64,000 nucleotides of DNA. It comes from Eledone cirrhosa. Lineage: Eukaryota. The position numbers and the translations under genes are program-made. Positions 1,234 through 63,180 of this stretch are shown here, one piece after another. The stretch spans positions 98,270,001-98,334,000 of the forward strand of contig OZ024742.1 of the NCBI GenBank assembly GCA_964016885.1. The letters run 5' to 3'. Position 1 is the first letter of the stretch. Each line of letters starts with the position of its first letter. The notes under the pieces are model-generated. The model saw only the letters and a list, made by a program, of their open reading frames with translations. It was not told the origin of the DNA and did no database searches.

Positions 1234-1257
1234 AAACATGCTGACTACAATTATAAC

Positions 1258-1435
1258 TGTTTCTACTTTAGGCACAAGGCCAGCAATTACCCAGTGCATT
1301 ACTGGTACTTTATTTTATCGACCCCGTAAGGATGAAAGGCAAAGTCAACCTCGGCGGGATTTGAACTCAGATCGTAAAGGGACGTAACTATGCTGGAAAG
1401 CATGGCGTCCGACCATCTACCGATACTGCCAATCC
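1258..1435 (-). mobile_element. tRNA-derived SINE with Nin-like central domain, inserted in the PLE
   Basis: A box TGGCAGTATCGG, B box GAGTTCAAATCC, core GCCTTTCATCCTTACGGGGTCGATAAAATAAAGTACCAG. 11-bp TSD acaattataac at 1247-1257 and 1436-1446. The homologous PLE near 38710 has the empty site. Confidence 0.85.
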
Positions 1436-3679: not shown

Positions 3680-3944
3680 GTACGTATGGGTTTACCGAAC
3701 ATTTATTATAATGTTCGGTTTGTTTGTAAACAAATAGCCCGAATTACGCCGTACAGTGCTCGGCATCCATCCTCGCCCTTTTGTTCAACACTGACACAAG
3801 AACGGTGTACTAGTTGCAAGCTTATTAGCTATTGTCAGCATCGTATACCTTTCTGTCAGATGATTGAACGTCTGAAAGTATATACTATGCATATTAACGG
3901 CTGAGCAGGCTAATTTGCATATCGAGTGAGTTAGTCGGCCGGGC

Positions 3945-4928
3945 ATACGGAAAACGGACCAAAAGAGCATTGAGGAAATTCCAGAGGTGATAGACCTCAA
4001 TGACGGCAGCCACCTCACCGTAATCGTTGGGGGTAGAAGGCCTAGGTGTGTCGTTTGTGGTGAAGGAACCCACCTAAAGGCTTTCTGCCCTCAGGCTAAA
4101 AAGTTGAGGCCACCTCTCTTACACACCCCAGAGACTAAACCATCAGCACCACCAGCAGCAGAAATGGCAGCAACAACTGTAGCAGCAACAACAGAAGCAA
4201 CTGTAGCAGCAACAACCCCAGCAACAGTAGCAAAACCAACACCACCACCACCCACTGCGCCAGAACTAGCACCGGTGCCTCCACCATCCACCACGCCACA
4301 ACCAACGCCTGTGGAGGATATTCCACTCCCCGAGCTATCGCAACTGGAGACAGATTGTGACGACGATGAGTGGGAAGCTGTACCAGGTAAAAAGAAAAAA
4401 AGAAAAAAGAACCCCCAAAAGAAAAAAAAAACTCTTCCTTCCCCCTCCACAAACAAAATACAGGGGGGAAACAAATAAATTAACAAACAAAAAGGTTAGG
4501 ACAGATATGCCACCATCCACACCAGCATCACCAACCCCATCACCACAAACACCAACACCATCACCATCATTAACCCCAACACCACAAAAGTCCCCAAACA
4601 GCGAAACAGAAACAAACCCACAACAAACGCAAACAAAACAAAACAAAACAACCAAAAAGATACACACTACACAGCATTAAATTTGAACAACAACCAGTTA
4701 TTACACTACATCCAACACAACACCAGCATCACAGAAAAAGACAACACAACACCCCAAAAATTCACATCACCTCCACACATACAAATCACTCGTATCACAC
4801 AGAAAACGTACACGACACTAAAACAAAAAATTCTCAAGGGCATCGGAGACTTCCGACAAGCACTCTCCAGGAGGATTTATAAGGACATCCTTCCGGAGGA
4901 GGCCACAAGCAGTGAGAAGGATGGATAA
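3945..4928 (+). pseudogene. Tx1 ORF1 (gag-like) C-terminal part, frameshifted
   Basis: CVVCGEGTHLKAFC (CX2CX4HX4C), a Pro/Thr-rich tract, then acidic and basic patches (DDDEWEAVPGKKKKRKK). Confidence 0.8.
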
Positions 4929-4992
4929 ACCATCCTTCCTCAACGAGAAGTAAGGTAAGTGGTCTTACCCATCTTTTCCACTCATTTTCAAC

Positions 4993-7737
4993 ATGACTTC
5001 ACTCAGAATAGGCAGCATAAATGCGCGTGGCTTGGGGTCGTCATGGAAGGGCCACCTGCTCGACGACCTCAGGTCACTAAACATAGATGTGGTGGCCATC
5101 AGCGAGACCAGAATCTCCGAAGCACGGGCCTTCGCACCGATCTTCGGCGGCTCCCATGTGTACGCATCTCCCAGCCGTCCGGGATCGGGGGAGGTGTGGC
5201 TGTACTTTTTCGGAGAGGTTTGGATCTCGCGATCCGGGCCATCTTCCTGGACACAGAAGGTAAGTTGGTGGTGCTGGACGTAACCAGCTGAGACGGACAA
5301 GCTTTCAGGCTAGTGGACGGGTATGCCCCAACAGGAGCCGGGCGGCCTGATTTCTTCCGGCGTCTGGAGAACTTCCTTGGAACGTCCCGCTCTTTAGTGT
5401 TAGTGGGTGACTGGAACGGCATCTTAGATGCACCCTGGGACTGTACGGGATTAGCGGATAGGGGAGGAGGGTGCAAGAGCCTCACCAACCAGCTCAGGCG
5501 TTTTGAACTGTCTGACAGGTACCGATTGGATTTCCCGAATGTGCCAATGTGGAATTGGACAAACCGCATCGGGTTATCCAGATCATATCTAGATAGAGTA
5601 ATTTGAAGGGAAATAGATTGGTCTAGCATAGGCTGTCTACATTTCAAGATAGTCAGCTACACGGACCACAAATTCCTGATCTCCGTGGTTGACATAGATA
5701 GGTTTCATAGACAAGGACCCGGCTACTGGAAGCTGAACGCGTTATTACCAGCGCGGAGAGCCTACAGAGACCGGATTAGCGAAGTAGTTAAGCGGGCGTT
5801 GACGGGGGACATCGTCAACAACAAGTGGTGGTTTGCTCTGAAAAGAGCGATTAGAATAGAATCCATTAGGTTTAGTAAGGCTTTAGCAATAGAGAAAAAT
5901 AGAGCAGAGGGAGACCTTATTAGAAAATTAGACGAGGCGCTTAACAAAGGCATCGCGACTGACGTATTGACCAATTCTTCAATGCAAAGCACGGAGGCTG
6001 CGTTGTCAGCTGGGGTGTGTGCTCTCAGACACGAGGGGACGGAAGCCGTTCAATGGGCCCGAGTGGCTACTCGATTCCGGGCAAACATGTGAAGCTTTTC
6101 AGCGACACTTCGCTCAGATGTTCGGGGGCAGCGGCGGGCCGGATTGAAGTATGGACTTTAGTGTGTACCTCGACGGACTGCCGCCACTCTCGGCCACTGA
6201 GGCGGAGTGTGGAGAAAAGCCGATAACAGTAACTGAAGTACGGGAGGCAATGACTGGCTGCACAAGGGGTAAATCGCCTGGTTTGGATGGTCTGCCCTAT
6301 GAACTATACGTACAGTTGCCAAACTTGTTCGGAGACCTCGTGGCGGACGTCTACTGCAGCTGGCAACAGAATGGGAGAATTCCCAGCTCTGTGAGCCTAG
6401 GAGCTGTGGCGTTGCTGACAAAGGATCCGAACAAGGGGGATAACATAGATAATTTCAGGCCTATAACACTACTATAACTCTACTAAACACAGAGTTCAAG
6501 ATTTGGGCCAAGGTGCTAGCAAAGAGGTTGGCACTTGTCGTTGGTGGTCTGGTGGGCAGACATGCGCCATTCCAGACAGATCCAGATACGACAACCTCCA
6601 CCTCATGCGATACATCGTGGAGAGGGTAGCTAGGGAACCTGGAACGGGTGGGTCCTTGACCAATTTAGATTTTTCGAAAGCTTTTGATAGGGTCGACCAT
6701 CGTTATCTGGTGGCAGTCCTGAAGGCGGCAGGCTTTGGGCCCGTCTTCAGAGGCTGGATCGCTGCCATGCACAGCGACATCTGATCTGTGATGAGAGTGA
6801 ACGGTCACCTTTCGGAATCGTTCAACATCATGCGCTCGGTCCGCCAAGGATGTCCCCTCTCGTTGCTATTGTACGTATTGACTCTCGAGCCATTCCTGCA
6901 CAAACTGGAGACGTTGAGGGAGGTCCCGCGCAAAATAGGATGCGGAAGATCCGTGTGGGCATATGCGGACGATGTCACCGTAGTGGTGTCGAACGCCAAA
7001 CACATCGAGATGATCGGCACTACACTAAGAGAATACGAAGCGGTGACAGGAGCAATTATCAACCAGGAATAGTCGGTAGGCCTGCAGATTCGCACCTGGA
7101 GAGACAGGTCCATGCCGTCCAGCAGCGTGGTCGGGTGCTGGACGGACGGACCGGTTAAATTGCTAGGAGTCTGGTTCTGTCCGGACCTCCAGACTGACAA
7201 AACTGGCACGAGGTGACGAGCAGGGTGGCTTCTCTAACCCAGAAATGGAGTAGCGGAGGTGGCTAACGCGTACATCGCTCCGTCATCTACTACCGCCTGA
7301 CCGTCATGCCTTGTCCTAAGCCTTGCCTGACTGCGCTGGAGCGTTCGCTCTTTCGCTTTTTGTGGAAGGGACGCGCTCCGATGGTCAGGCGGTCAATCTG
7401 CTGTCAACACCCGCTACGTGGAGGGCTGGGCATGCCGTGGCTGATGAATCGCAGACACGCGCTCAGGCTACGACATCTCCACCTCTTCCTCGACGGTGAT
7501 CAGGTGTGGTCGCCGTTTGCTAGACACGTTTTTCCCCAGCTCGTCTCCTTGACGGAGCTGCAGTCCTGGGTCAATCGAAGACCGAGAGGGAGCGCTTGGA
7601 GACTGGAATGTCTTCAGGCGCTCACAGCCCTCGACCACTCGGACAATGTGATCGGTGGAAGCTCCACCTTGGCGTTCTATAGAGGATTAGTGAAGGGGAA
7701 GTGCGACGACGTACTTGGGGAAACTCTAGGCGTCGAC
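4993..7737 (+). pseudogene. Tx1 ORF2 (APE endonuclease + reverse transcriptase), disrupted
   Basis: GSINARGL, ISETR, YAP, VGDWN, SYLDRV, TDHK, GYWKLN; KSPGLDGLPYE, NFRPITLL, DFSKAFDRVDH, VRQGCPLS, YADDVT. Multiple stops and frameshifts. Confidence 0.92.
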
Positions 7738-7875
7738 TATTGGGGAATTTTTCATTGTTCTTTTATTACATACTCTGTTTTTTTTAACACGCAGAAATGC
7801 CCATCTGTACCGTCCTGTATTGTCCAGTACTGTCCTTAATGTCTACTTTGTGTAAACCCTTGTGGTTAATAAAGA

Positions 7876-7897
7876 AATAATAATAATTATTATTATT
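7876..7897. repeat. (AAT)n/(ATT)n junction between Tx1-A tail and R4/Dong-1 tail
   Basis: aataataataattattattatt. Confidence 0.9.
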
Positions 7898-10800
7898 TTT
7901 CAATTTATCTTGCTTTATGTTCATACGAGTTATCACCAAGTCACAACCAGTGACCTCAAGAGAAAACAAGGTCCGCCCTGTTCAAGAAAGAACATACATA
8001 CACACACATGCATTCCTTTAGGTGTTTAGACTTGTGATGTACTTATATTGACAGAACCTTCCTTAGTATATGGGAAGTTCCCATTAGTACTATCGTTTGT
8101 ATTTCTCCTATACGCGTGTTTCCTATCTTTTGTATTTCTCCTATACGCGTAATCATTAGACCCCTTAGTTATCAGTCCTAGAGCACCTACAACCACTGGT
8201 ATTGTTTTAGTTCTCAATTTCCACATATTTCCAATTTCTATCTCCATGTCCTTATACTTGCTCAATTTTTCAAATGTTTTTATAGATACATTCTTGTCTA
8301 TTGGAACGGCCATATCAATTAGCAGGCATACCCTCTTTTTAATGTCCTTCACTATTATATCAGGTCTATTTGCATCTAGTTTTCGGTCTGTTTGGATGCT
8401 AAAGTTCCACAAGATTGAGATGTGATATTTTTCAAGTATGGGAGGTGGTTGATGCTCCCACCAATTCTTTTGATGGGGCAGGTCAAAATGCTTACACATT
8501 ATCCAATGTATGTATTGTGCAGCTCTGTCATGCATGTTTAGGTATTCGGTTGGAGCTATAGGGCTGCACATTGAAATTATATGATCAATGGTCTCTGGGT
8601 GTTTTTTACATACACGGCATAATGGGTTGCATCCATTATTTATTATGTTGGCTTGGTAATTTTTTGTTGGCAGACTCCGATTTCAGTCTAGAGGATGCCA
8701 ACTACTGATGGGTTAAAGTTTTGTCAACATCAGGATTGTTAGCTCTTTCTGGGTATTTTCCAGACAGAGGCTTTTCTTGTTATTTTTTAGCCAGTCTCTG
8801 TAGCAGTCCTTTCTTTGCAGTTACTTTTTTTTAGCCAGTCTCTGTAGCAGTCCTTTCTTTGCAGTTACTTTTACCTGCTTTTCTTTTTCTGTGTATTCCA
8901 TTTCAGCAGTAAATGGGACTTCTGAAATGTGTAGTCCATTACTGTATCTTTGTGCATCTTTTGTAATGTAGTATGATCTTTTGATGCTTTCGTATTTCAA
9001 AACGAATTTGATCATCCAATAATGTGATTCCCTTAGATATGTAGATAATCCAATTGTTGCAGTTTTCAACGCAATAACTAACTGGATTAGTTGATGACAT
9101 TGTAACTGTAGGTTACTACTGGTATGGCAAGCGTGCTTATGGCATCGATCCTATTTCTTGCATTCTATTCCGTTCTTAAGATTGCTCTTACTCTGCGGTA
9201 ACATTCCTTCCTTATCCTTTCCCTCATTGTCGAGTGCTTGATTCCGTCTCCTTCACAAACACCTAGATATTTGTAAGTTTCTTTTTGATCAAGTTCTCTT
9301 ATCACATTCCCCCGATCAAGATTAATGTCTGAACTTTTCAGCAGCTTTCCTCTGGTGAACGTTGCTATGGCGCATTTATCTAGACCAAACTCCATTTTAT
9401 TGTCAACACTGAACTGCTCCACAGTGGATAATAGCCCTTGCAATTGTTCATCATTTTTTGCAAATAGTTTCAGGTCATCCATGTCTAACAAGTGATTAAT
9501 GGTTTTGTCATAGAGTTTATATCCATGTTTTATTTCATTGAGCATTTTACTTAATGGTATAAGTGCGATGCAGAATAAAAGCGGTGATAATGAGACACCC
9601 TGAAAAATTCCACAATTAATATTAACTTCTCCAGCTTCCAGTGATTTCTTTTTCACTATTCGAAAGGAGTGTCGTTTTCCATGTCTTCATACTGAATGAC
9701 AGGAACCTCCAATTGTGTGGCAAACTATCGAATGATTTTTTATAATCTATCCAAGCAATTGATAGATTTTTGTGTCTATTATGACAATCTTCCAGTATCA
9801 TTTTGTTAACCAAAATCTGATCCTTACAGCCATATGAGCCTCGTTTACACCCTTTCTGCTGATTGGGAAATAGATCATTTGTGATCATATGTATATTCAG
9901 TTAGGACTGTTGTTAACATTTTATACGTTGTGGTCAAGCAAGGTATCGGTCTGTAATTTTTGGGATTGTTTGTCTCATCATTCTTCGGAAGCAGGAATGT
10001 AATGCCGTTAACTAGTCATGATGGTATCTTTTCTGGCTCCTTAACTATTTCATTGTAAAGTTGGGCTAACAGCTCATGAGACTCTGTGAAAATTTGGTAT
10101 TTTGTCTTTTCCTGGGGATTTCCATTTGCTGGTTTTTCTAAGAGCCAAACGCAAGTGTTCAACTGTTATATTTTCCCATATTTCTTCCTCAAGGAGAGCT
10201 GTATCTTTCATTTGTCTGTCTATCCATGGGGAATGTATATTGTGAACTTTTTCTTCGGCCCAGATCTTTTCCCAGAATTCCTGCACTTCCTCCTTGGGTG
10301 GTATTGATTTAGCAGTTATTGTTGACTTGCCAATTTTTCTGTAGAAGTTTATTTGGTTGTTTTTGAACATATTTTGTCCGTATAGAATCTAGATCGTTTT
10401 TCAAAGCGCCTTATAAGAGTAGCTTTGGCCGACACCTTTTGCTTGATTATTTCTATCAGCATGTCTATGTCACTTGTTGATTTTATACTGTATTTTCTTT
10501 TCAATTTTCTAAGTTTAGTTTGTTTAACTACTTTGTAGTTTGTTAAAATTTATGTCAGATCGGAGAAGGTTTATTTGGCGATTGATGTTCTCTTGTCAAG
10601 TAGATTTCTTGTGGGAATTCCTTTGTTTTTTCATTTTCACTCCACATAATTGAGTGGTGACTTTAGCCGATGCATAATACAGATGATTTAAATCAGTAAT
10701 GTTTAGTTTGTTTGTGATGATAATATTTTTGAGAATTATGTTAGTCTTGTGTATTATCTTTTGGTTCTGTTTGGAGTTCTGGATCTTAGGGAGGGTGTCT

Positions 10801-11555
10801 CGTTCCCCCATGTCAGATTCTTTCATTTTCATCCATTCCATCATAATTTCATCCTTCAATTTACGATCTCATTGTTTTCATTTTGAGTTTCATCTTGAGC
10901 ATGCACTCCCTCCACTTTTTCGATCCTTTCTTTAATTTGTTGTTTTCAGTGATTCCGCCCCAACCCTGGGATTCGAAGTGTTACAATTTACCTCGTTTTC
11001 ACTGACACATGTTTCATTTTCCCTTCGCTGATTTTGTGCTAATAGCTTGATCTGATCAATTTCTATATCAGATAGTAAATTTTTTTTAACAATATTTCTT
11101 CGTATATTGGCTAGTTTGTTACTGTCAATATAGCCTCTGTTTACGGGATGTTTCTTTTTCCAGTAGATATATGTCTGTTCTGTATTCGAACTATTTGATG
11201 GGTAGTACATGGCAGTGAAGAAAGCCTCAAGAACTTCTTAATTGTCTTCCCTTGATCATTTTTCTCTCTTTTTCTTTGGATTTCTTGGTGGTGAGCATGG
11301 AGGGCCAACAGTAGAAGTATTCCGGTTATGGGAGGTCTCCAGCTCCGAAGTGATGGGAAGGTTTTAACCATTAGCTGATTTTTCGACCCCAGACTGGTTC
11401 CTCTCTGAGGGACGCGGCCCTTTTTGACCCGGGTGACGGCCGATCCGGTATGAGATTTTATCATTTGACATTTACTTTATTTTGTCGCGTTTTATCCTTA
11501 ACCACCAAGGGGTAATCATTTCGTGTTACCACTTCTAGGACAAGTGTCAACCAAG
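7898..11555 (-). mobile_element. R4/Dong-clade non-LTR retrotransposon, copy 1 (near full length, single ORF RT + CCHC + RLE, disrupted)
   Basis: N-terminal LANIRRNIVKKNLLSDIEIDQI; WKSPGKDKIPNF, QQKGC, AWIDYKKSFDSLPH, GIFQGVSLSPLLF, HLLDMDDLKLF, YKYLG; MHD..YIHW, NRPDIIV, LIDMAVP, EKLSKY, PVVVGALG (restriction-like endonuclease). No APE domain. Sense tail is (AAT)n. Confidence 0.88.
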
Positions 11556-11563
11556 TATTATTA

Positions 11564-11616
<53 letters not shown>
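11556..11616. repeat. (ATT)n junction between R4/Dong-1 head and Tx1-B head
   Basis: About 20 ATT units with one G interruption. Confidence 0.95.
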
Positions 11617-12075
11617 GAATGCCATGGTTGACGGAGGCTCGGCTCTGTAAGTTATTGTAATTTTTAACCGTTATAACAACTGTAAATTGTTTAAAACTAG
11701 AACAAAATTGCAGATAAAGATACCCTCCTCCTCGTGAGAGGGTCTTTCTGCCCGTTAATTGGCCCTTCGGGGTTAAATAACCAGTTATTGGGGTTTTGTG
11801 TCCAATATTCATAAATGTGGTGTCGCCTCTGTCGCCTCTTTCGCATGTGACGCCATTAAAGAAAAAGTAAAATGTAGTTTCTCGTAGTGTTCTTCATCAA
11901 GAGAACGCGCGTACCGTGGAACAACAACAACGAAAGATGTGTGCGGTAAATACGGAAAGCCATTTCATTCGTCTGACGTCATGAAGAATAGCAGCAGCAG
12001 CAGTAATAACAGCAGCAGCAGCAACAGTGGCGAGGAAAATACTAGTAGCAGCCGCAACAACATCAGCAGAGCATA

Positions 12076-12106
<31 letters not shown>

Positions 12107-15100
12107 ACAACAGCAGCAGCAACAACAGCAACCACACAACAAGAGCAACAGCGGCAGCCGCGGTCGTAGTATCAGCAGTAACAACAAAAGTCAAAGCAGC
12201 TCTGACGACAACAACAACAACAAGAAAGAAAAACCAATCTCGTTTGCAGGTATCGCAAATAACCTGGAAACCATCCTTATAACAAATGAGGAATTTCAGG
12301 AAGAAAGGAAGATGGTGACGAAAACCGGACACCGAGCAATCTGCAAGTCTGCCGAAGAATTTTTCGAAACCTAACAGCACTGTGCGGTCACGTACCATAC
12401 AGTAAGCACAAAATCACGTAAGGCTGAAAGAGCCACAGAGGCTCAAATGCAAAAAGTCTTTGGGTCTGTGTGGTAGCGGAAAACGCATATCACCCGAAGC
12501 AAGAAATATGCCACCGTGGACGCGCTTTTTGTGACACTCTAGGTGGCAAAGGCTCATTCCTTAGTAACCCTAAGGAGCGAGGAAATGGTGTTGGTGCTCT
12601 CCGACTGCGGGCAAAAAATTGTGAGGGTCAAACTGACCCTAGTCCCTCCCTCCCCCCGGGATGGCTCCTTCTTGGCTAACCGCGTCTGTCCTCGTCGGAA
12701 TCGAGGACAAAATAACCGTACTGCAAGTACAGAAAAAAGTACGAGAAGATTGGGTCGGCGCCTCCATTGAGATGTTAATTCAAACCAACCAGGAGTGCAT
12801 CGAAGCTATCCCGGATGTTATAGACTTCGATAACGGCACTCAACTTCCCATAAGTGTTGAGGGAAAACGCCCGAAATGCTTTCGCTGTTGGTCGAAGACT
12901 CAGCTCAGAGCCTTCTACAATAAGAAGACCTTGAGAAAGGAGAAAAGCCCCTCCTACCGAAACCGGCTCCACTGCTACCAGCAACAGGACAGGCGGCAAC
13001 CAGGAAGGATAGGTCCGTGGCACCCATACCCACGCCACGGAAATCAAGAACAGCAGCAGCAGTGGATGTATTAACAACAACAAGAGTAATACCAACTGCA
13101 GCTGCAACAGAGACTCCACTGCAACCATCACCAACAAGAACACGTGAAAGAGTGGAGCTGCTACCCTTCCCCGACCTCACAGAATCGGAAATGGAGTGTG
13201 AGGTGGGAGAGGGGTGGCAAAAGGTCGCAAGAAGGCACAAACGCAGAGCAGCGCATCATCGCCTTCGAAAAGGGAGGGAAGAAATGAAAAAAGGGTGAAG
13301 GCTACTGCAAAGAGACTTACAGCACCAACACCACCAACACCATCACCACCCATACTAGCACTACCATCACCACCAACTGCCAACAACAACAACTCCTTTA
13401 ACAACACCACCACAAGCACAAACATCGCAAATACAACAACAAAACACACACACCCAGCAACAACTACAAGAAAATAGCAGAACCATACTCCACCCCCAGA
13501 AAAAAAATGCACAGCAATAAATACACACAAGAAACTAATGACTTACATAATTGAACACAGACATTTCACAGCACGACTACATAATACCAGCACCAATCAA
13601 AACACCAACGAACATAAGACTGGTAAGAATATCACAGAAACAATACACAAACATTAAAATGAAATTTCCCAACACAGTTGGTGATTTCAGAGACCTAGGA
13701 GGGACACTGAACCGGAGAGTATACTCGGATATACTCACAGAAGAGCCGACGACCAGCCGAAGGGGCGATTCAACGGTCCCTTCACCGTTCCCCACTCAAC
13801 ATGGCTGTATTCAGGATCGGAAGTGTAAACGTGAGTGGCTTGAACTCGGTCTGGAAGCAGGGTCACTTGTTTAACGACCTCAGGTCACTAAACATAGATA
13901 TGGTGGCAATTAACGAGACGAGAATCTCCCAAACGCAAGCTTCCGCACCGATCTTCGACGGTTACGAGGTGTACGAATCTCCGAACCGTCCGGCAGCGGG
14001 GGTGGGTGGGGGGGGGGGGGGGGGCTGTGTTGTTTCGGAATGGCTTGGGTCTCGCCATACGGACCATCGTCCTGGTCCCAGAATGTAAGTCGGTGGTGCT
14101 GGACGTAAGTGGCACCGAAGGCAACGCTTTCAGGCTAGTAGCCGTCTATGCCCCGACAGGGATAAGACGGCCAGATTTCTTCAGACATCTAGAGACCTTT
14201 CTTGGAACGTCCCGCTCTTTAGTGTTAGTGGGCGACTGGAACGGATTCTTGGATTCACGCTGCGATTGTGTGGGGCTAGTAGATAGGGGAGGAGGGTGCA
14301 AGGGCCTCACAAACCTGCTCAGACGTTTTGAACTGTCTGACAGGTATCGATTGGATCACCCAATGTGCCAATGTAGACATGGACAAACCTCATTGGGTCA
14401 TCCAGATCGTATCTCGATAGGGTATTCTGCAGAGAACTAGATAAGGCTAGTATAAATTGTCCACAATTTAAAATAGTCGGACAAGCTTGCGGCGAGATTG
14501 GCACTCGACCAATTCCTCAACGCAAAACACGAAGGCTGCGTTGTCAGAGCTAGAGCGCGTGCTCTGAAACACGAGGGGACAAAGCCGTCCAATAGGCCCG
14601 GGTGGCATAGGCGCGCGTGCCAACAAAGCCACAATTCGGTCTTTAACTGACCATAACGGGCGCGTGTTGCTCGAACCCGGGAATATGTGTGAAGCTTTTC
14701 AGCAGCACTTTGCTGAACTGTTTGGGAGCAGCGGCGGGCCGGGTCGGCGTATGGGTTTCAGTGCACACCTCGACGGACTACCTCGGCTCTCGACGACCGC
14801 AGCACAGTGTTGCGAAAAACCAATTACAGCCGGTGAAATACGGGAAGCGATGGCTAACTGCACGAGGGGTAAATCGCCAGGTTTGGATGGTCTGCCTTAC
14901 GAGCTTTATGCATTTATGCCAGACTTGTTCGCTGACCTCTTGGCAGACGTCTACTGCAACTGGCAGCAGAACAGGAGCATTCCCAGTTTTGTGAGCTGGG
15001 GAGCGATCGCACTGCTGAGAAAATACCCGAACAAGGGGGGTGTTATCGATAACTTCAGGTCCATAACCCTGTTAAACGCAGAGTTCAAGATTTTTGAAAA

Positions 15101-17208
15101 GGTGTTAGCAACGAGGTTGGCCCTTGTCGTCAAGGGTCTGGTGGGAGAGCCGTAGACATGCGCCATTCCGGACAGATCCATAAACAACAACCTTCACCTC
15201 ATGCGATACATCATAGAGAGGGTGGTTAAGTAACCTGGCACGGGTGGGATCCTGATCAACTTGGATCAATCCAAAGCATTTGATAGGGTCGACCATTGGT
15301 ACCTGGCGGTGGTCCTCGAGGGTGCCGGTTTCGGGCTCGTTTTCAGGGGTTGGATCGCTGCGATATACAGCGACATCTGCTCACTTGTGATGGTGAACGG
15401 TCACCTGTCGCAGCCGTTCAGCATCATGCACTCGGTCCGCCAGGGTTGTCCCCTCTTGTCCCTCTTGTACGTATTGGCTCTCGAGCCGTTACTCCACAAA
15501 CTGGGGAGATGAGGGGCGTCCTATGCGAACTAGGATGCGGGAAATCCGAGTCTGCTTGCGCCGACGACGTTTCCGTAGTGGTGTCGAGCACCAGACACGT
15601 CCAGATGCTCAGCACTGCTTTCAAGGAATACGAAGCGGTGGCAGGAGCAAAGATAAACCAGGAAAATTCGTTGGGCTTGCAGCTCGGCACCTGAAGAGGC
15701 AAGTCCATGCCGTCCGAGAGTGTCGTGGGGCGTTGGACGACGGACCGGTTAAATTGCTCAGGGTCTGGTTCAGACCGGACCTCCAGATTGAGAAAAACTG
15801 GAGCGAGCTGACGAGCAGTGTGGGCTCCCTCACCCAGAAATGGTCCGAGATGAAGCTGTCCCAGAAAGGCCGGGCGGAGGTGGCGTATGCGTACATCACA
15901 TCCGTCATCTGCTACCGCCTCACCGTCGTCCCTTGCCCCGGCCCAACTCTCACCACAATGGAACTCCTCCTCTACCGCTTTTTGTGGAAGGGACGCGCTC
16001 CCATGGTCAGAAGATCCATCTGCTGTCAACACCCATTGTGTGGAGGACTCCGTATGCCATGGCTGATGATGCGCAAACATGCGCTGAGGCTACGACATCT
16101 CTAGTGCTTCCTTGACGGTGAACAGGTGTGGTCGCCGTTCGCCAGGCACGTTTTCCCACAGCTCGTCTCCTTGACGGAGCTGCAGTCCTGGGTCAGCAAA
16201 AGACCGATGGATAGCGCTTGGAAACTGGAGTGTCTCCAGGCGCTCACTGACCTCTGCCAGCTGGGCACCAGTATCGGTGGGACATCCACCTCGGCATTCC
16301 ATAGAGGACTAGTGGAGGGGAAGAGCGACGACGTTCTCGGAGAGATCCTGGGCGTCGAAGAAGATCAGCTGTCTGCTCTCTTCCGGAGAACTTTCAGCCC
16401 AGGGCCTATGGATAACTTCCAAAATCCCTGGCCTGGCAGTGCTACCGGGGAGCTTTGCCAGTTCGAGATAAGCTCTACAGGCACGGAAGTGCCGTCAGCC
16501 GAGCCTGTCCGAGATGCGCTCAGAGTGACGAAACCGTTGTGCACGCACTCGGTGAGTGCCCGAGCATTGCTGACTTGTAGAAATATGTCTAACAGTTGCT
16601 GTCACGTGTAGGACTGATCCGGTTATCGACTGTGTCCATTGTGCAGTTGGTCTCGCCGTCTTCCTTCGGGGAGGAAGGGCAGGCGGCTTTCATCTGCCTG
16701 GTGGTCATGGCGAACGAGATTGTGTGGTGGACAAGGTTGAAAGGGTTAAAGACAGGCACTTTCCTCTTCGGCGAATCCCTAATTAACTTTTTCAAGTTTC
16801 ACTTGAAGAGTAAAATCAGGCTGGAGAGGAAAGTGCTGCCTTCTAGCAAGTTTGTTGAAAGATGGGTGAATGTAGCGAGAATGGTGCGAGTGAACACGAC
16901 CGCTCTGAATATACGCCTGAGAAATGGAAAAATTGAGAGAGGGCGCTTGCCCTGGTGGTCAGAGTGGCCGTGGTCTTTTGTGTGGTTTTCGCAAACGAGT
17001 AACCCTCGGAGGCTACCTCCCTATTGGGGAATTTTTTCATTGTTTCAATTTTCATGTCTATTGTTTATATATATATATGTTTATATGTCTTTTTTTCTTT
17101 TCTTATATAAATAATAAAAATCTTTACACGCACAAAACCCACATCGTACCGTCCTGTGCTGTCTGTAATGTTTTTCTTGATGTCAGCCCTTGTGGCAATA
17201 AAGAAATC
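11617..17208 (+). mobile_element. Tx1/L1-clade retrotransposon, copy B (full-length extent, divergent subfamily, disrupted)
   Basis: 5' UTR; ORF1 with polyQ, PISFAGIA and CFRCWSKTQLRAF (decayed knuckle); ORF2 from ATG 13801; 3' end CCCTTGTGGCAATAAAGAAATC-(ATT)n. Confidence 0.92.
13801..16920 (+). pseudogene. Tx1-B ORF2 (APE-RT-zinc finger), disrupted
   Basis: MAVFRIGSVNVSGL, INETR, AVYAP, VGDWN, KSPGLDGLPYE, DQSKAFDRVDH, VRQGCP, CADDV, C-terminal CPRC..ETV.HAL..CP. Deletion near 14478. Confidence 0.9.
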
Positions 17209-17229
17209 ATTATTATTATTATTATTATT
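17209..17229. repeat. (ATT)7 junction between Tx1-B tail and R4/Dong-2 tail
   Basis: attattattattattattatt. Confidence 0.95.
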
Positions 17230-19027
17230 GTTCTTTGAGTCTCAGTCATTGATTTTAGTTAACTGGAAAGTTTGTTGAAATGAATATCAAGCAACTGCCT
17301 GCAGCCTCAGATATTCAGGACGTATCGGGGGGTTCTTGCTGTTCCCAGTAAGCATGCCTTTTGAAGTGTTCCAAAGAGCGGGGCGGGGCCAATTCTCTTT
17401 AACCATCCCTGGAAACTTTTTGAGATAGTACCTAGTGCGCCTATGACAATCGGGATCACTTTGAATTCATGGCAGTTCCAAATCCTTTTCACCTCCCACT
17501 TTAACATCTGGTATCGGTTAATTTTCTCCCTCTCCTTCTCTTGCACTCTCGCGTCGAATGGGCAGGCTACATCCACAATCAGGCACGATCTTTTTTCCTT
17601 GTCCAAAACCACCAGGTCAGGTCTATTGTGTTCCAGGTTCTTGTCCGTCTGTATCTTAAAATCCCACAGCACCTTCACCTGATCGTTTTCTATCACCGAC
17701 TCTGGCTTGTGCTCATACCACTTCTCAGAATGTGGTAAATTGTTTACATTGCATAGGTGCCATTGGATCACCCTGCCCATCACATCATGTCTCCAGCCTT
17801 TATAGTGAGTCTGGGCTAGGTGTTTACACTCGGATACAATGTGAGCCACAGTCTCCCCTCTCTCTCTCCAGATCCTGCACAGTGGGCTAGCCTCCTCCTT
17901 GTAAATATGGTGTTTCAGCCACTTCGTTGTGAGGGCCTGCTCTTGCGTAGCCATTAGCATTCCTTCTGTAGCCTTTTAAGGTCCCTTCTTTTCAACCAGT
18001 TCTATGTCTGTGGATCTCTAAATCAGTTTTCTCAAAGAAGGTACTGTGAAGGGATTTTTCCTGAAGGCTGCTCTTTCTCCTTGATGTTATTTCCTCCTTG
18101 GACATCCCCTGGCCTATTGTCCGCTCCGTCAGTACAGTTCTGAGCATTGGCTCCTTACTATCAGTCACGTATTTGTGTAGGTTGTTTTTCTCCATCTGAA
18201 CACAGTCCTCTATGCTGATAAGACCTCTTCCACCTTCAGATCTCCTTAAGTAGAGTCTATCGACATCACTCCTCTTCTGGAACATGTTGTAGATAGTCAA
18301 TAGCTTCCTAGTCTTCCTATCCATTTCTTTTTGTTCAGCAACATTCCATCTCAGAATTCACGCACTGTACCTAATAATAGACACAGCTTGGGAATTTACT
18401 GCACTTATGGCTGCACTACTGTTCAGATGTGACTTTAATACACTCCTTACTCTCCGAATCTATTCAGATCTTATCAATTCCTTCATTTTTTGGTTCTTGA
18501 AGTCATCAGCCTCCAGAACACCCAAATACTTGTATCCTTCTTCAGTGTCAATTTCCTTTATCATCTCACCTGTTGGTACCTGGATTCCGTTGCTTCTGCT
18601 CAATTTACCCCTCTTCATCACAAGGACTCCACACTTACTAATACCAAATTGCATACATATATCATTGCTGAAAATACGGACAGTGTCAACAAGCACATCC
18701 AACTCCTTCTCACTCTTCCCGAAGAGCTTAAGATCGTCCATGAAGAAGAGGTGATTGATGGTAAGCTCTCCCTTTCCCAACTTGTATCCTGGTCTCACTT
18801 TTCGCAGCATAATGGTCATCAGGGTAAGGACAAACAAGAGAAGGGACAGACTATCTCCCTGGAAGATACCTGACTTCATCTTCACGCCTCCCAATGATTC
18901 TCCAGCTGATGTTAACTCTGTTTTCCAGGACTTCATACTTTTGCTCAACAACTGTCTGATGTTATCTGCCACCTTGAAGATCTCTAGGCTTTTGGTGATC
19001 CAAGAATGAGGCACCATGTCAAATACC
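17230..19027 (-). mobile_element. R4/Dong-clade retrotransposon, copy 2 (5'-truncated inside RT; different subfamily from copy 1)
   Basis: FDMVPHSW, GIFQGDSLS, HLFFMDDLKLF, YKYLG, RLYL.RSEGGRGL, CRI..ETVAHIVSEC, RHD, NRPDLVV, VDVACP, EKINRY, PIVIGALG; stop at 17307. Confidence 0.9.

Positions 19028-19062
<35 letters not shown>
19028..19062. repeat. (ATT)n junction between R4/Dong-2 5' truncation and Tx1-C head
   Basis: Pure ATT run of about 35 bp. Confidence 0.95.
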
Positions 19063-22000
19063 GGCGACCTACGTAGAAATTGTATCATCGTGAGCTCCGC
19101 AAATGTTTGTTATTTTCGGTTGTTTAAAATTGCCATTTATGGAAACTTTTTCTTGTTAACTGTACATAATTGCACATACATTGATTTCTGAAAAGGACAC
19201 TCAAAATTTAAACTTTTTATAATTATCCAAAATTTAAACTTTTTATAATTATCAAACAAAATTTTCTTTGAAAAATCATGGCCGACTCAGAGTCACACCT
19301 TCCTCACAAACTAACACCTCACACCGACACCACCATTGTAAATATTACTACGTTTGCCAACACTAAAAATATTAGCAGTAGCAATATCTTAAATTTGTCT
19401 CAGGCAGACATTCATTTCCCGCCATTACCAATGACAGCCGGTGTTAAAGCCGCCACCCCCACCACCACCACAGCGACAACAGAAACAAAAGAAAAAAATA
19501 AATTAACTCGTGATATCGAAATGAATTCAACCAAAATTAACTCTTCCACACCGAACACCACTGACGCCACCACCACTACCACCACAACTGAAACTAAAAT
19601 TAATAATAACAAAAATAACGATAACAACAACAGCAACAATGAAATTAAGAAAACCACCCTGAGTTTTGCCAGAGTAGCAAAAACGTGCGAAGCGATCCAG
19701 GTAACTCAGGAGGAATTAGAAGAAGCCAAAAGAATGGTAAAGAAAGATGGGTACAGGGCCAGCCTCGCCCCCCAAATAAAATGGAGCATCGTCGCCTATG
19801 CATCGTGTCTTATCGGACAATTAACATAAAATCGCGCTGAGTGGAACGGGCATCCGAGTCCCAAATCCAAAAATGTTTGGGACATGTGTGGGCAAAAAAA
19901 AGCCACATCCGACGTGGGCAGAAATATGGAATGGTGGACGTGTTCTTTGAAACACCACAGGAGGCCAGAGAACACTCCATGGCCCCATTAAAAAGTGACA
20001 ACTTCACACTCGTCCCTGGCTATTGTGGCCAGAGACTCGTAAAGATCAGGGTGACCCACGTTCCACCGGCCATCGAAATTCCCTGGCTAATGGCTGCCGT
20101 CCTGGCCGGCATCGAGGCCAATACTAAAATAATAGAAATAGCAAAAGAAAAACAGGAGAACTGGTCCGGAAGCAACTGTAACTGCAACAACCACAGCAAC
20201 AGTAACAAAACCAACACCACCACCACCACCCAACGCGCCAGAACTATCACCAGCGCCTACACCATCAACCACGCCACAACCAAAATCAACGCGCTGTGGA
20301 GGATTTTCCACTCCCCGGCTTACCGCAACTGGAGACATTGTGACGATGAGGAGTGGGAAACGGTATCAGAAAAAAAGAAAAAAAAGAAACCAAAAATGAA
20401 AAAGATTCTCTTCATTCCCTCTCCAAAAACAAAATACAGAGGGAAACAAATAAACTATCAAACAAAAAAGTTAGGACAGATATGCCACCATCCACACCAG
20501 CATCACCAATCCCATCACCCCAAACACCAACACCATCACCATCATTAACCCCAATACCACCATCACCAACACCACAAAAGTCACCAAAAAACGAAACAGA
20601 AACAAACCCACAACGAACGCAAACAAAACAAAACAACCAAAGAGTTACACACTACACAGCATTAAATTTGAACAACAACCAATTATTACACTACATCCAA
20701 CACAACACCAGCATCACAGAAAAAGACTACACAACAACCCAAAAGTTCACACCACCTCCACACATACAAATCACTCGCATCACACAGATGACTAAACATA
20801 GATGTAGTGGCCATCAGCGAGACCAGAATCTCCGAAGCACGGGCCTTCGCACCGATCTTCGGCGTCTACGATGTGTACGCATCTCCCAGCCGTCCGGGTA
20901 CGGGGGGAGGAGTTGCTGTGCTTTTTCGGAGAGGTTTGGATCTCGCCATACGGGCCATCTTCCTGGAACCAGAAGGTAAGTTGGTGGTGCTAGACGTCAC
21001 CAGCGGAGACGGGCAAGCTTTCAGGCTAGTGGCCGTATATTCCCCGACAGGTGCAGGGCGGCCTGATTTCTTCCGGCGTCTGGAGACCTTTCTTGGAACG
21101 TCCCGCTCTTTAGTGTTAGTGGGCGACTGGAACGGGATCTTAGATGCACGCTGGGACTGTGTGGGATTAGCGGATAGGGGAGGAGGGTGCAAGGGCCTCA
21201 CCAACATGCTCAGGCATTTTGAACTGTCTGACAGGTACCGATTGGATTTCCCGAATGTGCCAATGTGGACTTGGAGAAACCGCATCGGGTCATCCAGATC
21301 ATATCTAGATAGAGTATTTTGTTGGGAAATAGATAGGTCTAGCATAGGCTGTCCACAATTCAAGATAGTCAGCTACACGGACCACAAATTTGTGATCTGT
21401 GTGCTTGACTTAGATAGGCTTCATAGACGAGTACCCGGCTACTAGAGGCTAAACGCGTCCTTACCAGCGCGCAAGGCCTACAGAGAACGGATTAGCGAAC
21501 TAGTTAAGCGGGCGTTGACGGGGGCCATCGTCAACAACAAGTGGTGGTTTGCTCTGAAAAGAGCAATTAGAATAGAGTCCATTAGTTTTAGTAAGTCTTT
21601 AGCAATAGAGAAAAATAGAGCAGAGGGAGACCTTATTAGAAAATTAGACGAGGTGCTTACCAAAGGCACCGTGACCGACGTACTTGTGGCGAAATTGGCC
21701 CTTGACCAATTTATCAATGCAAAGCACGAAGGCTGCGTTATCAGAGCTAGGGTGCGTGCTCTCAGACACGAGGTGACGAAAGCCTTTCAATGGCCCCGAG
21801 TGGCGGAGGCGCGTCGTGGCAACGAAGCCACGATCCGGTCTTTGGTGGACCACGACGGGCGCATGATACTCGATCCCGGGCAAATGTGTGAAGCTTTTCA
21901 GCGACACTTCACACAGCTGTTCGGGGGCAACGGTGGGCCGGATCCAGGGATGGACTTTAGTGTCTACCTCGACGGACTGCCGTGGCTCTCGGCCACTGAG

Positions 22001-24361
22001 GCGGAGTGTTGCGAAAAGCCGATAACAGCCGCTGAAGTACGGGAGGCAATGAATGGTTGAACAAGGGGTAAATCGCCTGCTTCGGATGGTCTGCCCTATG
22101 AACTTTACGTACAGATGCCAAACTTGTTCGGAGGCCTCTTGGCGGACGTCTACTGCAACTGGCAACAGAACAGGAGAATTCCCAGCTCTGTGAGCCGAGG
22201 AGCTGTGGCGCTGCTGAGAAAGGATCCGAACAAGGGGGATAACAGATAATTTTAAGCCCATAACTCTTTTAAACACAGAGTTCAAGATTTAGTACAAGGT
22301 GCTAGCAAAGAGGTTGGCGCTTGTCGTTGGTGGTCTGGTGGGAGAGGCGTAGACATGCGCCATTCCCGATAGATCCATCCACGACAACCTCCACCTCATT
22401 CGATACATCGTAGAGAGGGTAGCTAGGGAACCTGGCACGGGTGGGTCCTTGATAAATTTAGATCAGTCGAAAGCTTTCGATAGGGTCGACCATCTTTACC
22501 TAGAGGCATTCCTGAGGGCGGCTGGCCAGTCTTCAGAGGCTGGATCGCTGCCATGCCCAGCGACATCTGCCCTGTGGTGAGAGTGAACGGTCACCTTTCG
22601 GAACCGTTCAACATCATGCGCTCGGTCCACCAAGGATGTCCCCTCTCGTCCCTCTTGTACGTATTGACTCTCGAGGCATTACTGCACAAACTGGAGACGT
22701 TGAGGGGGTCCCGCGCGAACTAGGATGCGGAAGATACGTGTCAACATATGCGGACGATGTCACCGTAGTGGTGTCGAACGCCAAACACATGGGGGCGATC
22801 GGCACTACACTAAGAGAATACGAAGCGGTGACAGGTGCAATGATCAACCAAGAAAATCAGTGGGCCTGCAGCTCGGCACCTGGAGAGGCAGGTCCATGCG
22901 TCCAACAGCGTTGTCGGGCGCTGGACGGACGGACCAGTTAAATTGCTCGGTGTCTGGTCGGTCCGGACCTCCAGACGGACAAGAACTGGGACGAGGTGAC
23001 GAGCAGGGTGGCTTCTCTCACCCAGAAATGGGCGGCGAGGAAGCTATCACTGAAAGGTCGAGCGGAGGTGGCTAACGCGTACATCGCTCCGTCATCTACT
23101 ACCGCCTGACCGTCGTACCTTGTCCTAAGCCTCGCCTGACTGCGCTGGAGCGTTTGCTTTTTAGCTTTTTGTGGAAGGGACGCGCTCCGATGGTCAGGCG
23201 GTCCATCTGCTGTCAACACCCTCTACGTGGAGGGCTGGGAATGCTGTGGCTGATGATGCGCAGACATGCGCTCAGGCTACGACATCTCCACCTCTTCTTC
23301 GACGGTTAGCAGGTGCGGTCGCCGTTTGCTAGACACGTCTTTCTCCAGCTCGTCTCCTTGACGGAGCTGCAGTCCTGGGTCAAGCGAAGACCGAGAGGGA
23401 GCGCTTGGAGACTGGAATGTCTTTAGGCGCTCACAGCCCTCGACCAATCGGGCAATCTGATCGGTGGAAACTCCACCTTGGCGTTCTATAGAGTATTAGT
23501 GGAGGGGAAGAGCGACGACGTACTTGGGAAAAATCTAGGCCTCAACGAAAATCAACTAGCCAATCGCTTCGGAAGAACTTTCGGGCCAGGGCCTATGGAC
23601 AACTTCCAGAAATCTCTGGCCTGGCAGTGCTACCGAGGAGCTTTGACAGTTCGGGATAAACTCTACAGGCATGGAGGTGCCGTCAGCAGGGCATGTCGGA
23701 GATGCGCGCAGGGCAATGAAACCGTACTGCACGCCCTCGTCCAGTCTCCGAGCATTGCTGACTTGTGGGTTTATGTCGAACACCTGCTGTCGCGTGTAGG
23801 ACGGATCCAGCTATCAGCTGAGTCTATCGTGAGGATTGCCCCGCCGTCTTCCTTTAGCCGGGAAGGGCAGGCAGTTTTTATCTGTCTGGTGGTCATGGCG
23901 AAAGAGATAGTATGGTGGACACGTTTGAAAGGGATGAAGACGAGCACTTACCTCTTCGCTGCTGCCCTGATTATCTTTTTTAAATTTCATTTGAAAAGGA
24001 AAATCAGGGTAGAGAGTGAAGTGCTCTCTTCCCAGCATTTTGTTGAAAGATGGGTAAGAGAAGCAAGTATGGCCCGAGTGAATGGGCCTACTCTGAGTAT
24101 GTGTCTGTAAATTAAAGGTGGAAAACTGGGAGAGGGCACTTGCCCTGGTGGTCAGGGTCACTGTGGCTTTTTAATGCGCTTTCTCCACGAATGTCCGTCG
24201 GAAGTCTCCCCCCTATTGGGGAATTTTTTCATTGGTCTATTATTACATCCTCTGTTTCTTGTTTTTTTACACGCAGAAATGCCCTTTTGTATCGTCCTGT
24301 ATTGTTCTGTACTGTCCTTAATGTCTACATTATGTAAACCCTTGTGGTTAATAAAGTAAGC
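19063..24361 (+). mobile_element. Tx1/L1-clade retrotransposon, copy C (intact ends, internal deletions)
   Basis: ORF1 ATG at 19278 (TLSFARVA). ORF2 APE/RT motifs and CRRCAQGNETVLHALVQ zinc finger, stop 24110. 3' end CCCTTGTGGTTAATAAAGTAAGC-(ATT)n. Deletions near 20170 and 20787 relative to copy A. Confidence 0.93.
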
Positions 24362-24376
24362 ATTATTATTATTATT

Positions 24377-24416
24377 GTACTGGGTAATTGCTGGCCTTGT
24401 GCCTAAAGTAGAATCA
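24377..24416 (+). mobile_element. 5'-truncated SINE tail inside the ATT run behind Tx1-C
   Basis: gtactgggtaattgctggccttgtgcctaaagtagaatca matches the 3' end of the SINE at 1258-1435; attattattgt lies on both sides. Confidence 0.8.
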
Positions 24417-24675
24417 ATTATTATTGTTATTATTATTATTATTATTATTATAAAATATATATATATATATAGTATTAGTTATACTATTTATGGTTATGTA
24501 AATACAAAATCTTATGCAGTTATAAGTATTTTACACACACCCTAAATAGTGGTAGGCAGTAATGTATTACTACCTTATTACCAGTAAGTTAAGTAGCTCA
24601 ATGTAAAAACATCAGATGATTTACAGAGCAGTTATATGAAATATAAGAATCAAAGAACTGTTCAAAACATTATTG

Positions 24676-24722
24676 TGCTTACAGCTGTTTCCTCCAAACC
24701 GAGATTTGGATTCTTCGGAGCA
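24676..24722 (-). ncRNA. Hammerhead ribozyme motif (left pLTR arm)
   Basis: Reverse complement of 28086-28132 with one change in stem II that gives a U-G wobble. Confidence 0.65.
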
Positions 24723-28085: not shown

Positions 28086-28132
28086 TGCTCCGAAGAATCC
28101 AAACCTCGGTTTGGAGGAAACAGCTGTAAGCA
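28086..28132 (+). ncRNA. Type I hammerhead ribozyme motif with CCGAAGA core variant (right pLTR arm)
   Basis: tgct-CCGAAGA-a-tccaaacc-tc-ggtttgga-g-GAAAC-AGCT-GTA-agca: stem I tgct/agca, hairpin stem II, palindromic stem III. Confidence 0.7.
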
Positions 28133-62834: not shown

Positions 62835-63136
62835 GGTCGCATATGTATGAAGACGTATAATTCTGCGGGGGAAATGGTTCGTAACTTTCAGCTGTTTTAT
62901 AGTATCCTTTTTTTGTATTTTCTTGTCGTTAACGAATCATAAGATACCCACCTTGGTTCCAAGGAAGGGAGATCTCTCAATATTCGGGCTTTACTCCCGA
63001 ATACACAGATTTACTTTTAAAAACTTCGAAAAATCGCTTCCTCACTAAAAAGAATATGGACATGTTCGACCTTGAAGCTGTAAACAACGTACAGGTCAAA
63101 AGTTCAAAAACAGCCACAATAGATCTTACCACAACA

Positions 63137-63180
<44 letters not shown>

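What the first reader, a model, noticed from the sequence alone, without database searches (positions are those of the whole stretch)
3945..24452. 20-kb alternating Tx1(+) / R4-Dong(-) array built on an (ATT)n landing pad
Seen: Tx1-A> (AAT/ATT)n <Dong-1 (ATT)n Tx1-B> (ATT)n <Dong-2 (ATT)n Tx1-C> (ATT)n SINE-tail> (ATT)n. No unique DNA lies between elements and none interrupts another's body. Orientation is perfectly clade-specific, and the copies belong to different subfamilies, so this is not a segmental duplication. Tx1-D at 62835 also starts at (ATT)n. Established: Dong-type R4 elements target TAA repeats, and some Tx1 families (Kibi, Koshi) target other microsatellites. Inference: an APE-type and an RLE-type retrotransposon converged on the same microsatellite but prime from opposite strands. 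Each insertion leaves ATT on both sides and renews the target, giving a self-extending safe-harbour array whose head-to-head promoters and tail-to-tail ends could generate antisense/piRNA precursors.
Basis: partly seen in the sequence, partly recalled or inferred. Interest (0 to 1): 0.85.

Follow-up and report, generated by a model that had tools for sequence, protein, structure and literature searches.

The report
Two retrotransposons share one ATT microsatellite
This is a decayed pile-up of two unrelated jumping-gene families that sit in the same (ATT)n microsatellite in fixed opposite directions all over an octopus-like genome, likely because each cuts a different strand of it; the neat alternation here is chance, but the ATT-specific Tx1-type family, with many intact copies, appears undescribed.

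Summary
The array is real: three Tx1-type LINEs (+) and two Dong-type LINEs (-) plus a SINE fragment, joined only by (ATT)n runs; all five LINEs are broken. Genome-wide, ATT is a true target and not just a tail. 1641 of 1687 5' ends of one Tx1 subfamily follow ATTATTATT in exact register and none follows AAT. All 108 LINE neighbours across a run obeyed Tx1-sense/Dong-antisense. Alternation is not a rule. After a Tx1 end the next element is Tx1 in 402 of 1361 junctions, after a Dong head in 36 of 141 (odds ratio 1.22, p=0.33). Longer, non-alternating arrays exist. Corrections: Tx1-A lacks a 5' ATT run and abuts another repeat; A and C are one subfamily; Dong-1 is 5'-truncated; the SINE is not ATT-specific. 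The piRNA idea is untested. Known precedents: TAA-targeting Dong, microsatellite-targeting Tx1 (Kibi, Koshi), SART/TRAS opposite-strand telomeric arrays, SaTar modular arrays. What looks new is a strictly (ATT)n-specific, recently active APE-type LINE in octopods that shares its target with an RLE-type LINE.

The parts
3681..3944 (.). Unrelated ~265-bp interspersed repeat abutting the broken 5' end of Tx1-A (not part of the ATT array)
   Evidence: blastn hits at 79-89% in many fetched stretches, incl. 6 of the 40 random ones
3945..7875 (+). Tx1-A: broken Tx1-type LINE, GGCGACC-headed subfamily, first ~1.1 kb missing, ~650-bp deletion at 7737, no 5' ATT run
   Evidence: 89% to natural copy L244 from its position 1109; stops and frameshifts
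7876..7897 (.). Mixed (AAT)/(ATT) spacer
7898..11555 (-). Dong-1: broken RLE-type (Dong/R4-like) LINE, family 1, lacking ~1.05 kb of 5' UTR
   Evidence: 88-91% to natural copy L189 from its position 1076; RVT_1
11556..11616 (.). (ATT)n spacer, 61 bp
11617..17208 (+). Tx1-B: both ends present but broken; GAATGCC head, ORF2 ~80% to the young subfamily
17209..17229 (.). (ATT)7 spacer
17230..19027 (-). Dong-2: 5'-truncated RLE-type LINE, family 2 (protein 37% identical to family 1)
   Evidence: 92.5% to a natural full-length copy; RVT_1
19028..19062 (.). (ATT)n spacer, 35 bp
19063..24361 (+). Tx1-C: both ends present but broken; GGCGACC head, two ~265-bp deletions in ORF1
   Evidence: 90-93% to L244; Exo_endo_phos and zf-RVT
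24362..24376 (.). (ATT)5 spacer
24377..24416 (+). 3' fragment of an abundant SINE (tRNA-like head judged by eye on the full copy at 1253-1432); a passenger, not ATT-specific
   Evidence: 92% to the copy at 1253-1432
24417..24451 (.). Terminal (ATT)n run
62835..64000 (+). Tx1-D: 5' part of a more distant Tx1-type family, preceded by a degenerate ATT run; continues beyond the window
   Evidence: ORF2 region 73% to the young subfamily; flanks of its other copies not examined

Best explanation
Two unrelated non-LTR retrotransposon lineages, a Tx1-type LINE with an APE endonuclease and two Dong-type LINE families with a restriction-like endonuclease, both sit inside (ATT)n microsatellites in fixed opposite orientations, likely because each nicks and primes from a different strand, and this array is a decayed, randomly ordered pile-up of such insertions. 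Shown: the target, the orientation rule, the exact register of full-length Tx1 ends (ATT|G at the 5' end, C|ATT at the 3' end), ATT left on both sides, the longer 3' run, no poly(A) after Tx1, and no dependence of one neighbour on the other. Inferred: the Tx1 RNA ends in AUU repeats, because its AATAAA lies 6 nt before the element end, so cleavage would fall inside the downstream run. This RNA would anneal to a nicked (AAT)n strand. Dong RNA ends in UAA repeats and would prime from the (TTA)n strand. A target-site duplication of roughly 18 nt hidden in the run would explain why the 5' run is never shorter than 18 nt. Each event makes two fresh, pure runs, so later insertions of either family land beside earlier ones rather than inside them.
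For: 1641 of 1687 GAATGCC-type 5' ends follow exact ATTATTATT and 0 follow AATAATAAT. 30 of 30 GGCGACC-type 5' ends follow ATT runs. Of 40 young copies picked by their ORF2 protein, 39 have a 5' run and 40 a 3' run. Dong 3' ends carry (TAA)n in 29 of 29 and 26 of 29; Dong 5' breaks abut AAT in 91 of 112 raw rows and ATT in 1. 48 of 48 Tx1 and 60 of 60 Dong neighbours follow the orientation rule; tail-to-tail Tx1 pairs occur at only 3 places. Neighbour choice is independent: 402/959 vs 36/105, p=0.33. Intact natural copies give ORF1 (699 aa, CCHC knuckle), ORF2 (1139 aa, APE-RT-CCHC) and a single 1216-aa RT-CCHC-RPD..D..K..KY protein. Run lengths: 5' median 26, minimum 18; 3' median 53; p=6e-6. 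Poly(A) in 0 of 40. Control: the SINE has an ATTAT tail yet lies in an ATT run in only 2 of 30 copies.
Against: Only 22 of 52 raw rows of 5'-broken Tx1 copies have ATT at the break (7 of the misses are a subfamily switch point, several more are alignment breaks), and Tx1-A itself has none. Targeting of truncated Tx1 insertions may therefore be looser, or later deletions are common. No nicking assay, no RNA ends and no empty orthologous site were seen. No target-site duplication could be read directly inside the runs. Young Tx1 copies have a LINE neighbour about twice as often as random runs do (25 of 38 vs 7 of 23 on the left, p=0.009), which simple random choice among runs does not explain. 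Some homotypic arrays look like tandem duplications.
Confidence: 0.85

Rival explanations
1. Ordered alternation: something in the mechanism (for example a Dong end favouring a Tx1 insertion next to it, or selection for convergent pairs) builds Tx1/Dong/Tx1 arrays.
For: This window alternates over five elements; one random 10-kb stretch held Dong-Tx1-Dong (L348); Tx1-tail-to-Dong-tail junctions are the commonest type counted (959).
Against: Odds ratio 1.22 (0.82-1.82), if anything towards like-with-like; sampled flanks 32 of 60 vs 7 of 16, p=0.58; Tx1-Tx1 and Dong-Dong-Dong runs occur in other arrays. Five elements alternate by chance about 1 time in 16 at even odds (arithmetic).
Confidence: 0.05
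2. No endonuclease specificity: the elements carry ATT at both RNA ends, or anneal to spontaneous nicks or slipped structures in the run, so RNA-DNA pairing alone picks the site and orientation.
For: The exact ATT|G register could reflect an RNA that begins with AUU; the 3' run is longer than the 5' run; a role for 3' microsatellite-like repeats in choosing primer sites is proposed for RTE elements (PMC6007223, abstract).
Against: 5'-truncated copies cannot carry a 5' AUU, yet 91 of 112 Dong breaks and 22 of 52 Tx1 breaks abut the run in the expected polarity. The SINE has an ATTAT tail but is not confined to runs. Both endonuclease domains show their catalytic motifs.
Confidence: 0.1
3. Assembly mis-join at the ATT runs.
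For: None positive; runs are shared sequence at every joint.
Against: Runs are only 15-61 bp; every copy is 6-20% diverged from its relatives and has private deletions; the same junction types recur hundreds of times and in random stretches.
Confidence: 0.03
4. The arrays are a host-maintained dual-strand piRNA or antisense source.
For: At least 959 convergent Tx1-tail/Dong-tail junctions exist; the Tx1 poly(A) signal is only 6 nt from its end, so read-through into the neighbour is plausible (sequence, inference); piRNAs against transposons are reported in molluscs (bioRxiv 10.1101/250761, search listing only).
Against: All five copies here are decayed and both Dong copies lack their 5' ends; read-through would be a by-product, and nothing here points to host maintenance.
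Confidence: 0.12

Closest known systems
Kibi, Koshi and crocodilian Tx1 families (Tx1 clade; PMC4494074 sections 15-16 and passages; PMC3812793 passage)
   Same: APE-type two-ORF LINE inserted specifically in a microsatellite
   Different: Known targets named there are (TC)n, (TTC)n, (TTCC)n, (TTTC)n; here (ATT)n, in an octopod. In a quick RT tree the octopod group is not sister to (TC)n-flanked relatives. Fig. 3 labels of that paper, its supplements and Repbase were not visible.
Dong / DongAg / DongBg (R4 clade, TAA-targeting; PMC3812793 and PMC3774820 passages)
   Same: Single ORF with RT, CCHC and restriction-like endonuclease; (TAA)n on both sides in the element's own sense. Dong-R4 is already annotated as abundant in octopus (PMC13282606, PMC8967140).
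   Different: Two families only 37% alike in protein share the target here; the HDV-like 5' ribozyme shown for silkworm Dong was not found (weak test).
SART and TRAS in silkworm telomeric repeats (PMC10088271 passages)
   Same: Two LINE families insert in one tandem repeat in opposite orientation and form arrays
   Different: Both are R1-clade elements in telomeric repeats; here an APE-type and an RLE-type LINE share an interstitial microsatellite genome-wide.
SaTar arrays of guayule and rice (PMC5907723 abstract and passages)
   Same: Modular, non-nested arrays of unrelated elements linked by microsatellite, with internal deletions that remove some linkers
   Different: SaTars are non-autonomous MULE DNA transposons, often in (TA)n; these are autonomous LINEs with a strand rule.

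Membership tests
Tx1 clade | ORF2 with N-terminal APE endonuclease, RT and C-terminal CCHC | tested here: met
   PF03372, PF00078, PF13966 on P0001; aligns to L1 ORF2p over residues 5-854 with catalytic motifs in place
Tx1 clade | Separate ORF1 with a gag-type CCHC knuckle (criterion recalled, from no call) | tested here: met
   699-aa ORF1 with CX2CX4HX4C at 374
Tx1 clade | RT groups with labelled Tx1 references rather than with L1 proper | tested here: inconclusive
   No labelled Tx1 reference was available; quick tree of 105 rows has open deep forks. The label rests on architecture and on L1-Tx1 being annotated in octopus (PMC13282606).
Tx1 clade | Target-sequence preference (over 20% of flanks of one type, criterion in PMC4494074) | tested here: met
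   1641 of 1687
Kibi / Koshi | Target (TC)n or (TTC)n | tested here: not met
   Target is (ATT)n
Kibi / Koshi | RT sister to TC-targeting elements | tested here: inconclusive
   Octopod group (SH-aLRT 100) joins unnamed proteins (99), apart from four (TC)n-flanked contigs; quick tree, and those contigs are Kibi-like only by their flanks
Dong (R4 clade) | Single ORF, RT followed by CCHC and PD..D..K endonuclease, no APE | tested here: met
   P0003, P0004
Dong (R4 clade) | (TAA)n on both sides | tested here: met
   3' ends 29 of 29 and 26 of 29; 5' breaks 91 of 112 raw rows; full-length heads follow TAA runs
Dong (R4 clade) | RT groups with silkworm Dong / nematode R4 | not testable with these tools
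   No labelled R4 or Dong protein among the hits; only R2 among solved structures
Dong (R4 clade) | HDV-like self-cleaving ribozyme at the 5' end (shown for silkworm Dong, PMC3774820) | tested here: inconclusive
   No ribozyme family in Rfam; a hand-made descriptor found none but had no positive control
SART/TRAS-type opposite-orientation arrays | Two LINE families in one repeat, opposite strands | tested here: met
   108 of 108 neighbours
SART/TRAS-type opposite-orientation arrays | Telomeric repeat target, both R1 clade | tested here: not met
   Target (ATT)n at 98 Mb of a 379-Mb contig; one partner lacks APE
SaTar arrays | Non-nested modules linked by microsatellite | tested here: met
SaTar arrays | Non-autonomous MULE DNA transposons | tested here: not met
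   Elements are RT-encoding LINEs

The most novel reading that the evidence does not exclude
An undescribed, still-active octopod Tx1 lineage has evolved a strictly (ATT)n-specific APE endonuclease independently of Kibi/Koshi, has converged with RLE-type Dong on the same microsatellite from the opposite strand, prefers runs freshly made by earlier insertions, and so manufactures the genome's long ATT tracts and over a thousand multi-element arrays; its enzyme may also move the abundant SINE, whose last ~25 nt resemble the Tx1 3' end.
Probability: 0.35. Interest if true: 0.65.

Novelty: new variant of a known kind. Interest (0 to 1): 0.48.

Why it matters
How APE-type endonucleases acquire strict sequence specificity is poorly understood (PMC3812793 says so for microsatellite targeting). 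This family offers many intact, 98-100% identical copies with a near-absolute, base-exact target. Nicking and priming can therefore be tested directly and compared with an RLE-type enzyme on the very same DNA. It also gives an insertion rule for two LINE groups that are abundant in octopus genomes and so far only counted in the papers I saw. The particular 20-kb array matters little: it is one fossil among many.

Tried and rejected
Alternation beyond chance: rejected. Segmental duplication of the array: rejected, since copies differ by 10-23% with unshared deletions and the two Dong copies belong to families 37% alike in protein. ATT as tail only: rejected. SINE as ATT-targeted: rejected, 2 of 30; it has ordinary duplications (19 of 30 of 9 nt or more, median 17) that mostly begin with ATTAT. 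Read support for the assembly: uninformative, as the listed contig pieces were 60-256 nt and repeats were skipped. Expression: no RNA holder listed. Ribozyme at Dong or Tx1 5' ends: nothing in Rfam or by descriptor, no positive control. Direct reading of a Tx1 target-site duplication inside the runs: not possible in 38 junction pairs. ATT-flanked Tx1 relatives outside octopods: none among 80 metagenome loci of 24-42% identity, whose contigs mostly lack element ends; four were (TC)n-flanked. Flanks of other Tx1-D copies: 40 matches listed, not examined. The careful tree did not finish; only the quick tree is cited. Earlier scan notes: two look-ups returned nothing. Literature searches without a paper on ATT-targeting Tx1 or on these arrays.
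Full report
Setting. The window is G000:C3:98270001-98334000 of a 3.0-Gb genome. The closest named relative of the Tx1-type reverse transcriptase is a protein of the octopod Argonauta hians, 74% identical over 89% of the query region, so I treat the host as octopus-like.

The observation. All five LINEs carry stops or frameshifts and are 80-94% identical to natural reference copies. Three details differ. Tx1-A and Tx1-C are one subfamily (85-90% to each other) with different deletions. Tx1-A has no 5' ATT run: it lacks its first ~1.1 kb and abuts another common repeat, and the missing part is not in the 10 kb before the window. Dong-1 lacks ~1.05 kb of 5' UTR.

What the elements are. About 130 of the 150 listed hits to the Tx1 endonuclease region lie in open frames of 1139 aa or more (my count). 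Forty of them, fetched by position, are 98.2-100% identical to one 6030-bp copy. That copy encodes a 699-aa ORF1 with a CCHC knuckle and a 1139-aa ORF2 with APE, RT and zinc-knuckle domains, best matched by human L1 ORF2p. Five of 150 listed Dong-1 hits lie in a 1216-aa frame. This protein and its family-2 counterpart (37% identical) have RT, CCHC and an RPD..D..K..Y endonuclease motif, no APE, and match only R2 among solved structures. The labels Tx1 and Dong/R4 rest on architecture and target; no labelled reference was on hand for a clade test.

Target or tail. In the whole genome 1687 places carry the 21-nt head of the GAATGCC subfamily, 1641 of them directly after ATTATTATT; none follows AATAATAAT. 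All 30 best matches to the GGCGACC head follow an ATT run, as do 29 of 29 for the Tx1-B head. Of 40 copies chosen by protein alone, 39 have a 5' run and 40 a 3' run. Dong 3' ends are followed by (TAA)n in 29 of 29 and 26 of 29 copies, and 91 of 112 raw rows of Dong 5' breaks abut AAT, 1 abuts ATT (rows include some duplicates and alignment breaks). Against this, only 22 of 52 raw rows of Tx1 5' breaks abut ATT, none AAT; 7 of the misses are a subfamily switch point and several are alignment breaks. The SINE is a useful control: it ends in ATTAT but lies in an ATT run in 2 of 30 copies.

Orientation and order. In 221 flanks (223 less one duplicated locus) 108 had a LINE across the run: 48 Tx1, all in the ATT sense, and 60 Dong, all opposite; 34 had the SINE and 79 nothing recognised (a junction may have been met from both sides). 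Tail-to-tail Tx1 pairs were found at 3 places. Order, however, is free. After a Tx1 3' end the next element is a GAATGCC Tx1 head 402 times and a Dong-2 tail 959 times; after a full-length Dong head, 36 and 105 times (exact patterns, runs of about 12-45 nt only). The odds ratio is 1.22 (0.82-1.82), p=0.33. Four other regions that I annotated, chosen because search hits clustered there, show Tx1-Tx1, Dong-Dong-Dong and arrays of 27 kb or more.

Renewal and clustering. In 37 young copies the 5' run has median 26 nt and minimum 18, the 3' run median 53 (p=6e-6), and 0 of 40 have poly(A). In 40 evenly spaced 10-kb stretches of the two largest contigs there were 41 runs of 12 nt or more; 13 touched one of these LINEs. 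Young Tx1 copies have a LINE on the left in 25 of 38 cases against 7 of 23 random runs of 18 nt or more (p=0.009), and on the right in 22 of 40 against 6 of 23 (p=0.036). This excess is modest, rests on a small control, and may come from run purity, region, or tandem duplication such as the five near-identical copies on C2.

Mechanism. By canonical target-primed reverse transcription (established knowledge) the primer is the strand complementary to the RNA's 3' end. Tx1 ends in AATAAA plus 6 nt and then ATT, so its RNA would end in AUU repeats and prime from a nick in the AAT strand; Dong ends in TAA and would use the other strand. That accounts for the orientation rule. A duplication of about 18 nt hidden in the run plus copied or slipped repeats would account for the run lengths. 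These steps are inferred. Silkworm Dong is released from a co-transcript by an HDV-like ribozyme (PMC3774820, passages), so Dong need not have a promoter of its own; I found no such ribozyme here, by weak tests. The piRNA proposal is untested.

Comparison with what is known. TAA-targeting Dong and (TC)n/(TTC)n-targeting Kibi and Koshi are listed in PMC3812793 (passages); PMC4494074 (abstract, sections 15-16, passages; figure labels and supplements not seen) adds (TTCC)n and (TTTC)n. SART and TRAS insert in one repeat in opposite orientation (PMC10088271, passages). Non-nested arrays linked by microsatellite are described for SaTar MULEs (PMC5907723, abstract and passages). Octopus repeat papers count L1-Tx1 and Dong-R4 without target sites in what I read (PMC13282606, main text parts 1-2 of 3; PMC8967140 and PMC9115989, passages). 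PMC4640811 and PMC4758252 (passages) and PMC6007223 (abstract) gave background only. Nine searches showed no ATT-targeting Tx1. The library lacks subscription papers, and Repbase and Dfam could not be consulted, so the family may be catalogued there. In a quick RT tree the octopod group stands apart from (TC)n-flanked relatives, which suggests, but does not prove, a separate origin of its target.

Verdict. The array is real but ordinary within this genome, and its alternation is chance. The lasting result is the genome-wide rule: an intact, recently active APE-type LINE with base-exact (ATT)n specificity sharing its target, on the opposite strand, with RLE-type Dong. New variant of a known kind; interest 0.48.

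Noticed in passing
G000:C2:188050350-188080719 (L182-L185): Five head-to-tail young Tx1 copies 99.75-100% identical, with the same interrupted spacer at all four inner joints; looks like tandem duplication (or an assembly effect) rather than five insertions.
   Followed up: partly
window 11617 and 19063 vs L202, L244: Tx1 subfamilies are mosaics: two unrelated heads/ORF1s (GAATGCC, GGCGACC) occur on closely related ORF2s, with a switch point near position 2265 of the young copy.
   Followed up: partly
L189 vs L194: The two Dong families are 37% alike in protein yet 76-81% alike in the first ~600 nt of the 5' UTR, which suggests a shared or swapped 5' module.
   Followed up: no
window 1253-1432 and 24377-24416: The SINE's last ~25 nt (CCTTGTG...GAAAC then ATT) resemble the Tx1 3' end, and its duplications (median 17 nt) mostly start with ATTAT; it could be a Tx1 passenger with relaxed targeting, or RTE-driven.
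   Followed up: partly
window 24633-28175: 1.2-kb inverted repeats (98.9% identical) around a 302-aa minus-strand ORF with a weak GIY-YIG hit (E 0.04); probably a Penelope-like element with inverted terminal repeats.
   Followed up: partly
window 3681-3944: Common ~265-bp repeat with a short hairpin near its left end; related sequence also abuts a broken Tx1 in L086.
   Followed up: partly
window 32444-33502 and 54369-54611: Two older, distant Tx1-like ORF2 fragments (43-54% protein identity) outside the array.
   Followed up: no
L365, L369, L370, L371: Metagenome contigs with Tx1-like ORF2 flanked by (TC)n, Kibi-like by their flanks; they group with fish and turtle proteins in the quick tree.
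   Followed up: partly
L189, L190, L047: Some intact Dong-1 copies carry a SINE fragment inside the 5' UTR at an internal AAT-rich spot.
   Followed up: no
G000:C1:366196266-366223691 and C3:183976001-184003737: Longer arrays (27 kb or more, 7-8 LINE pieces) in which some joints lack ATT, apparently lost to deletion.
   Followed up: partly
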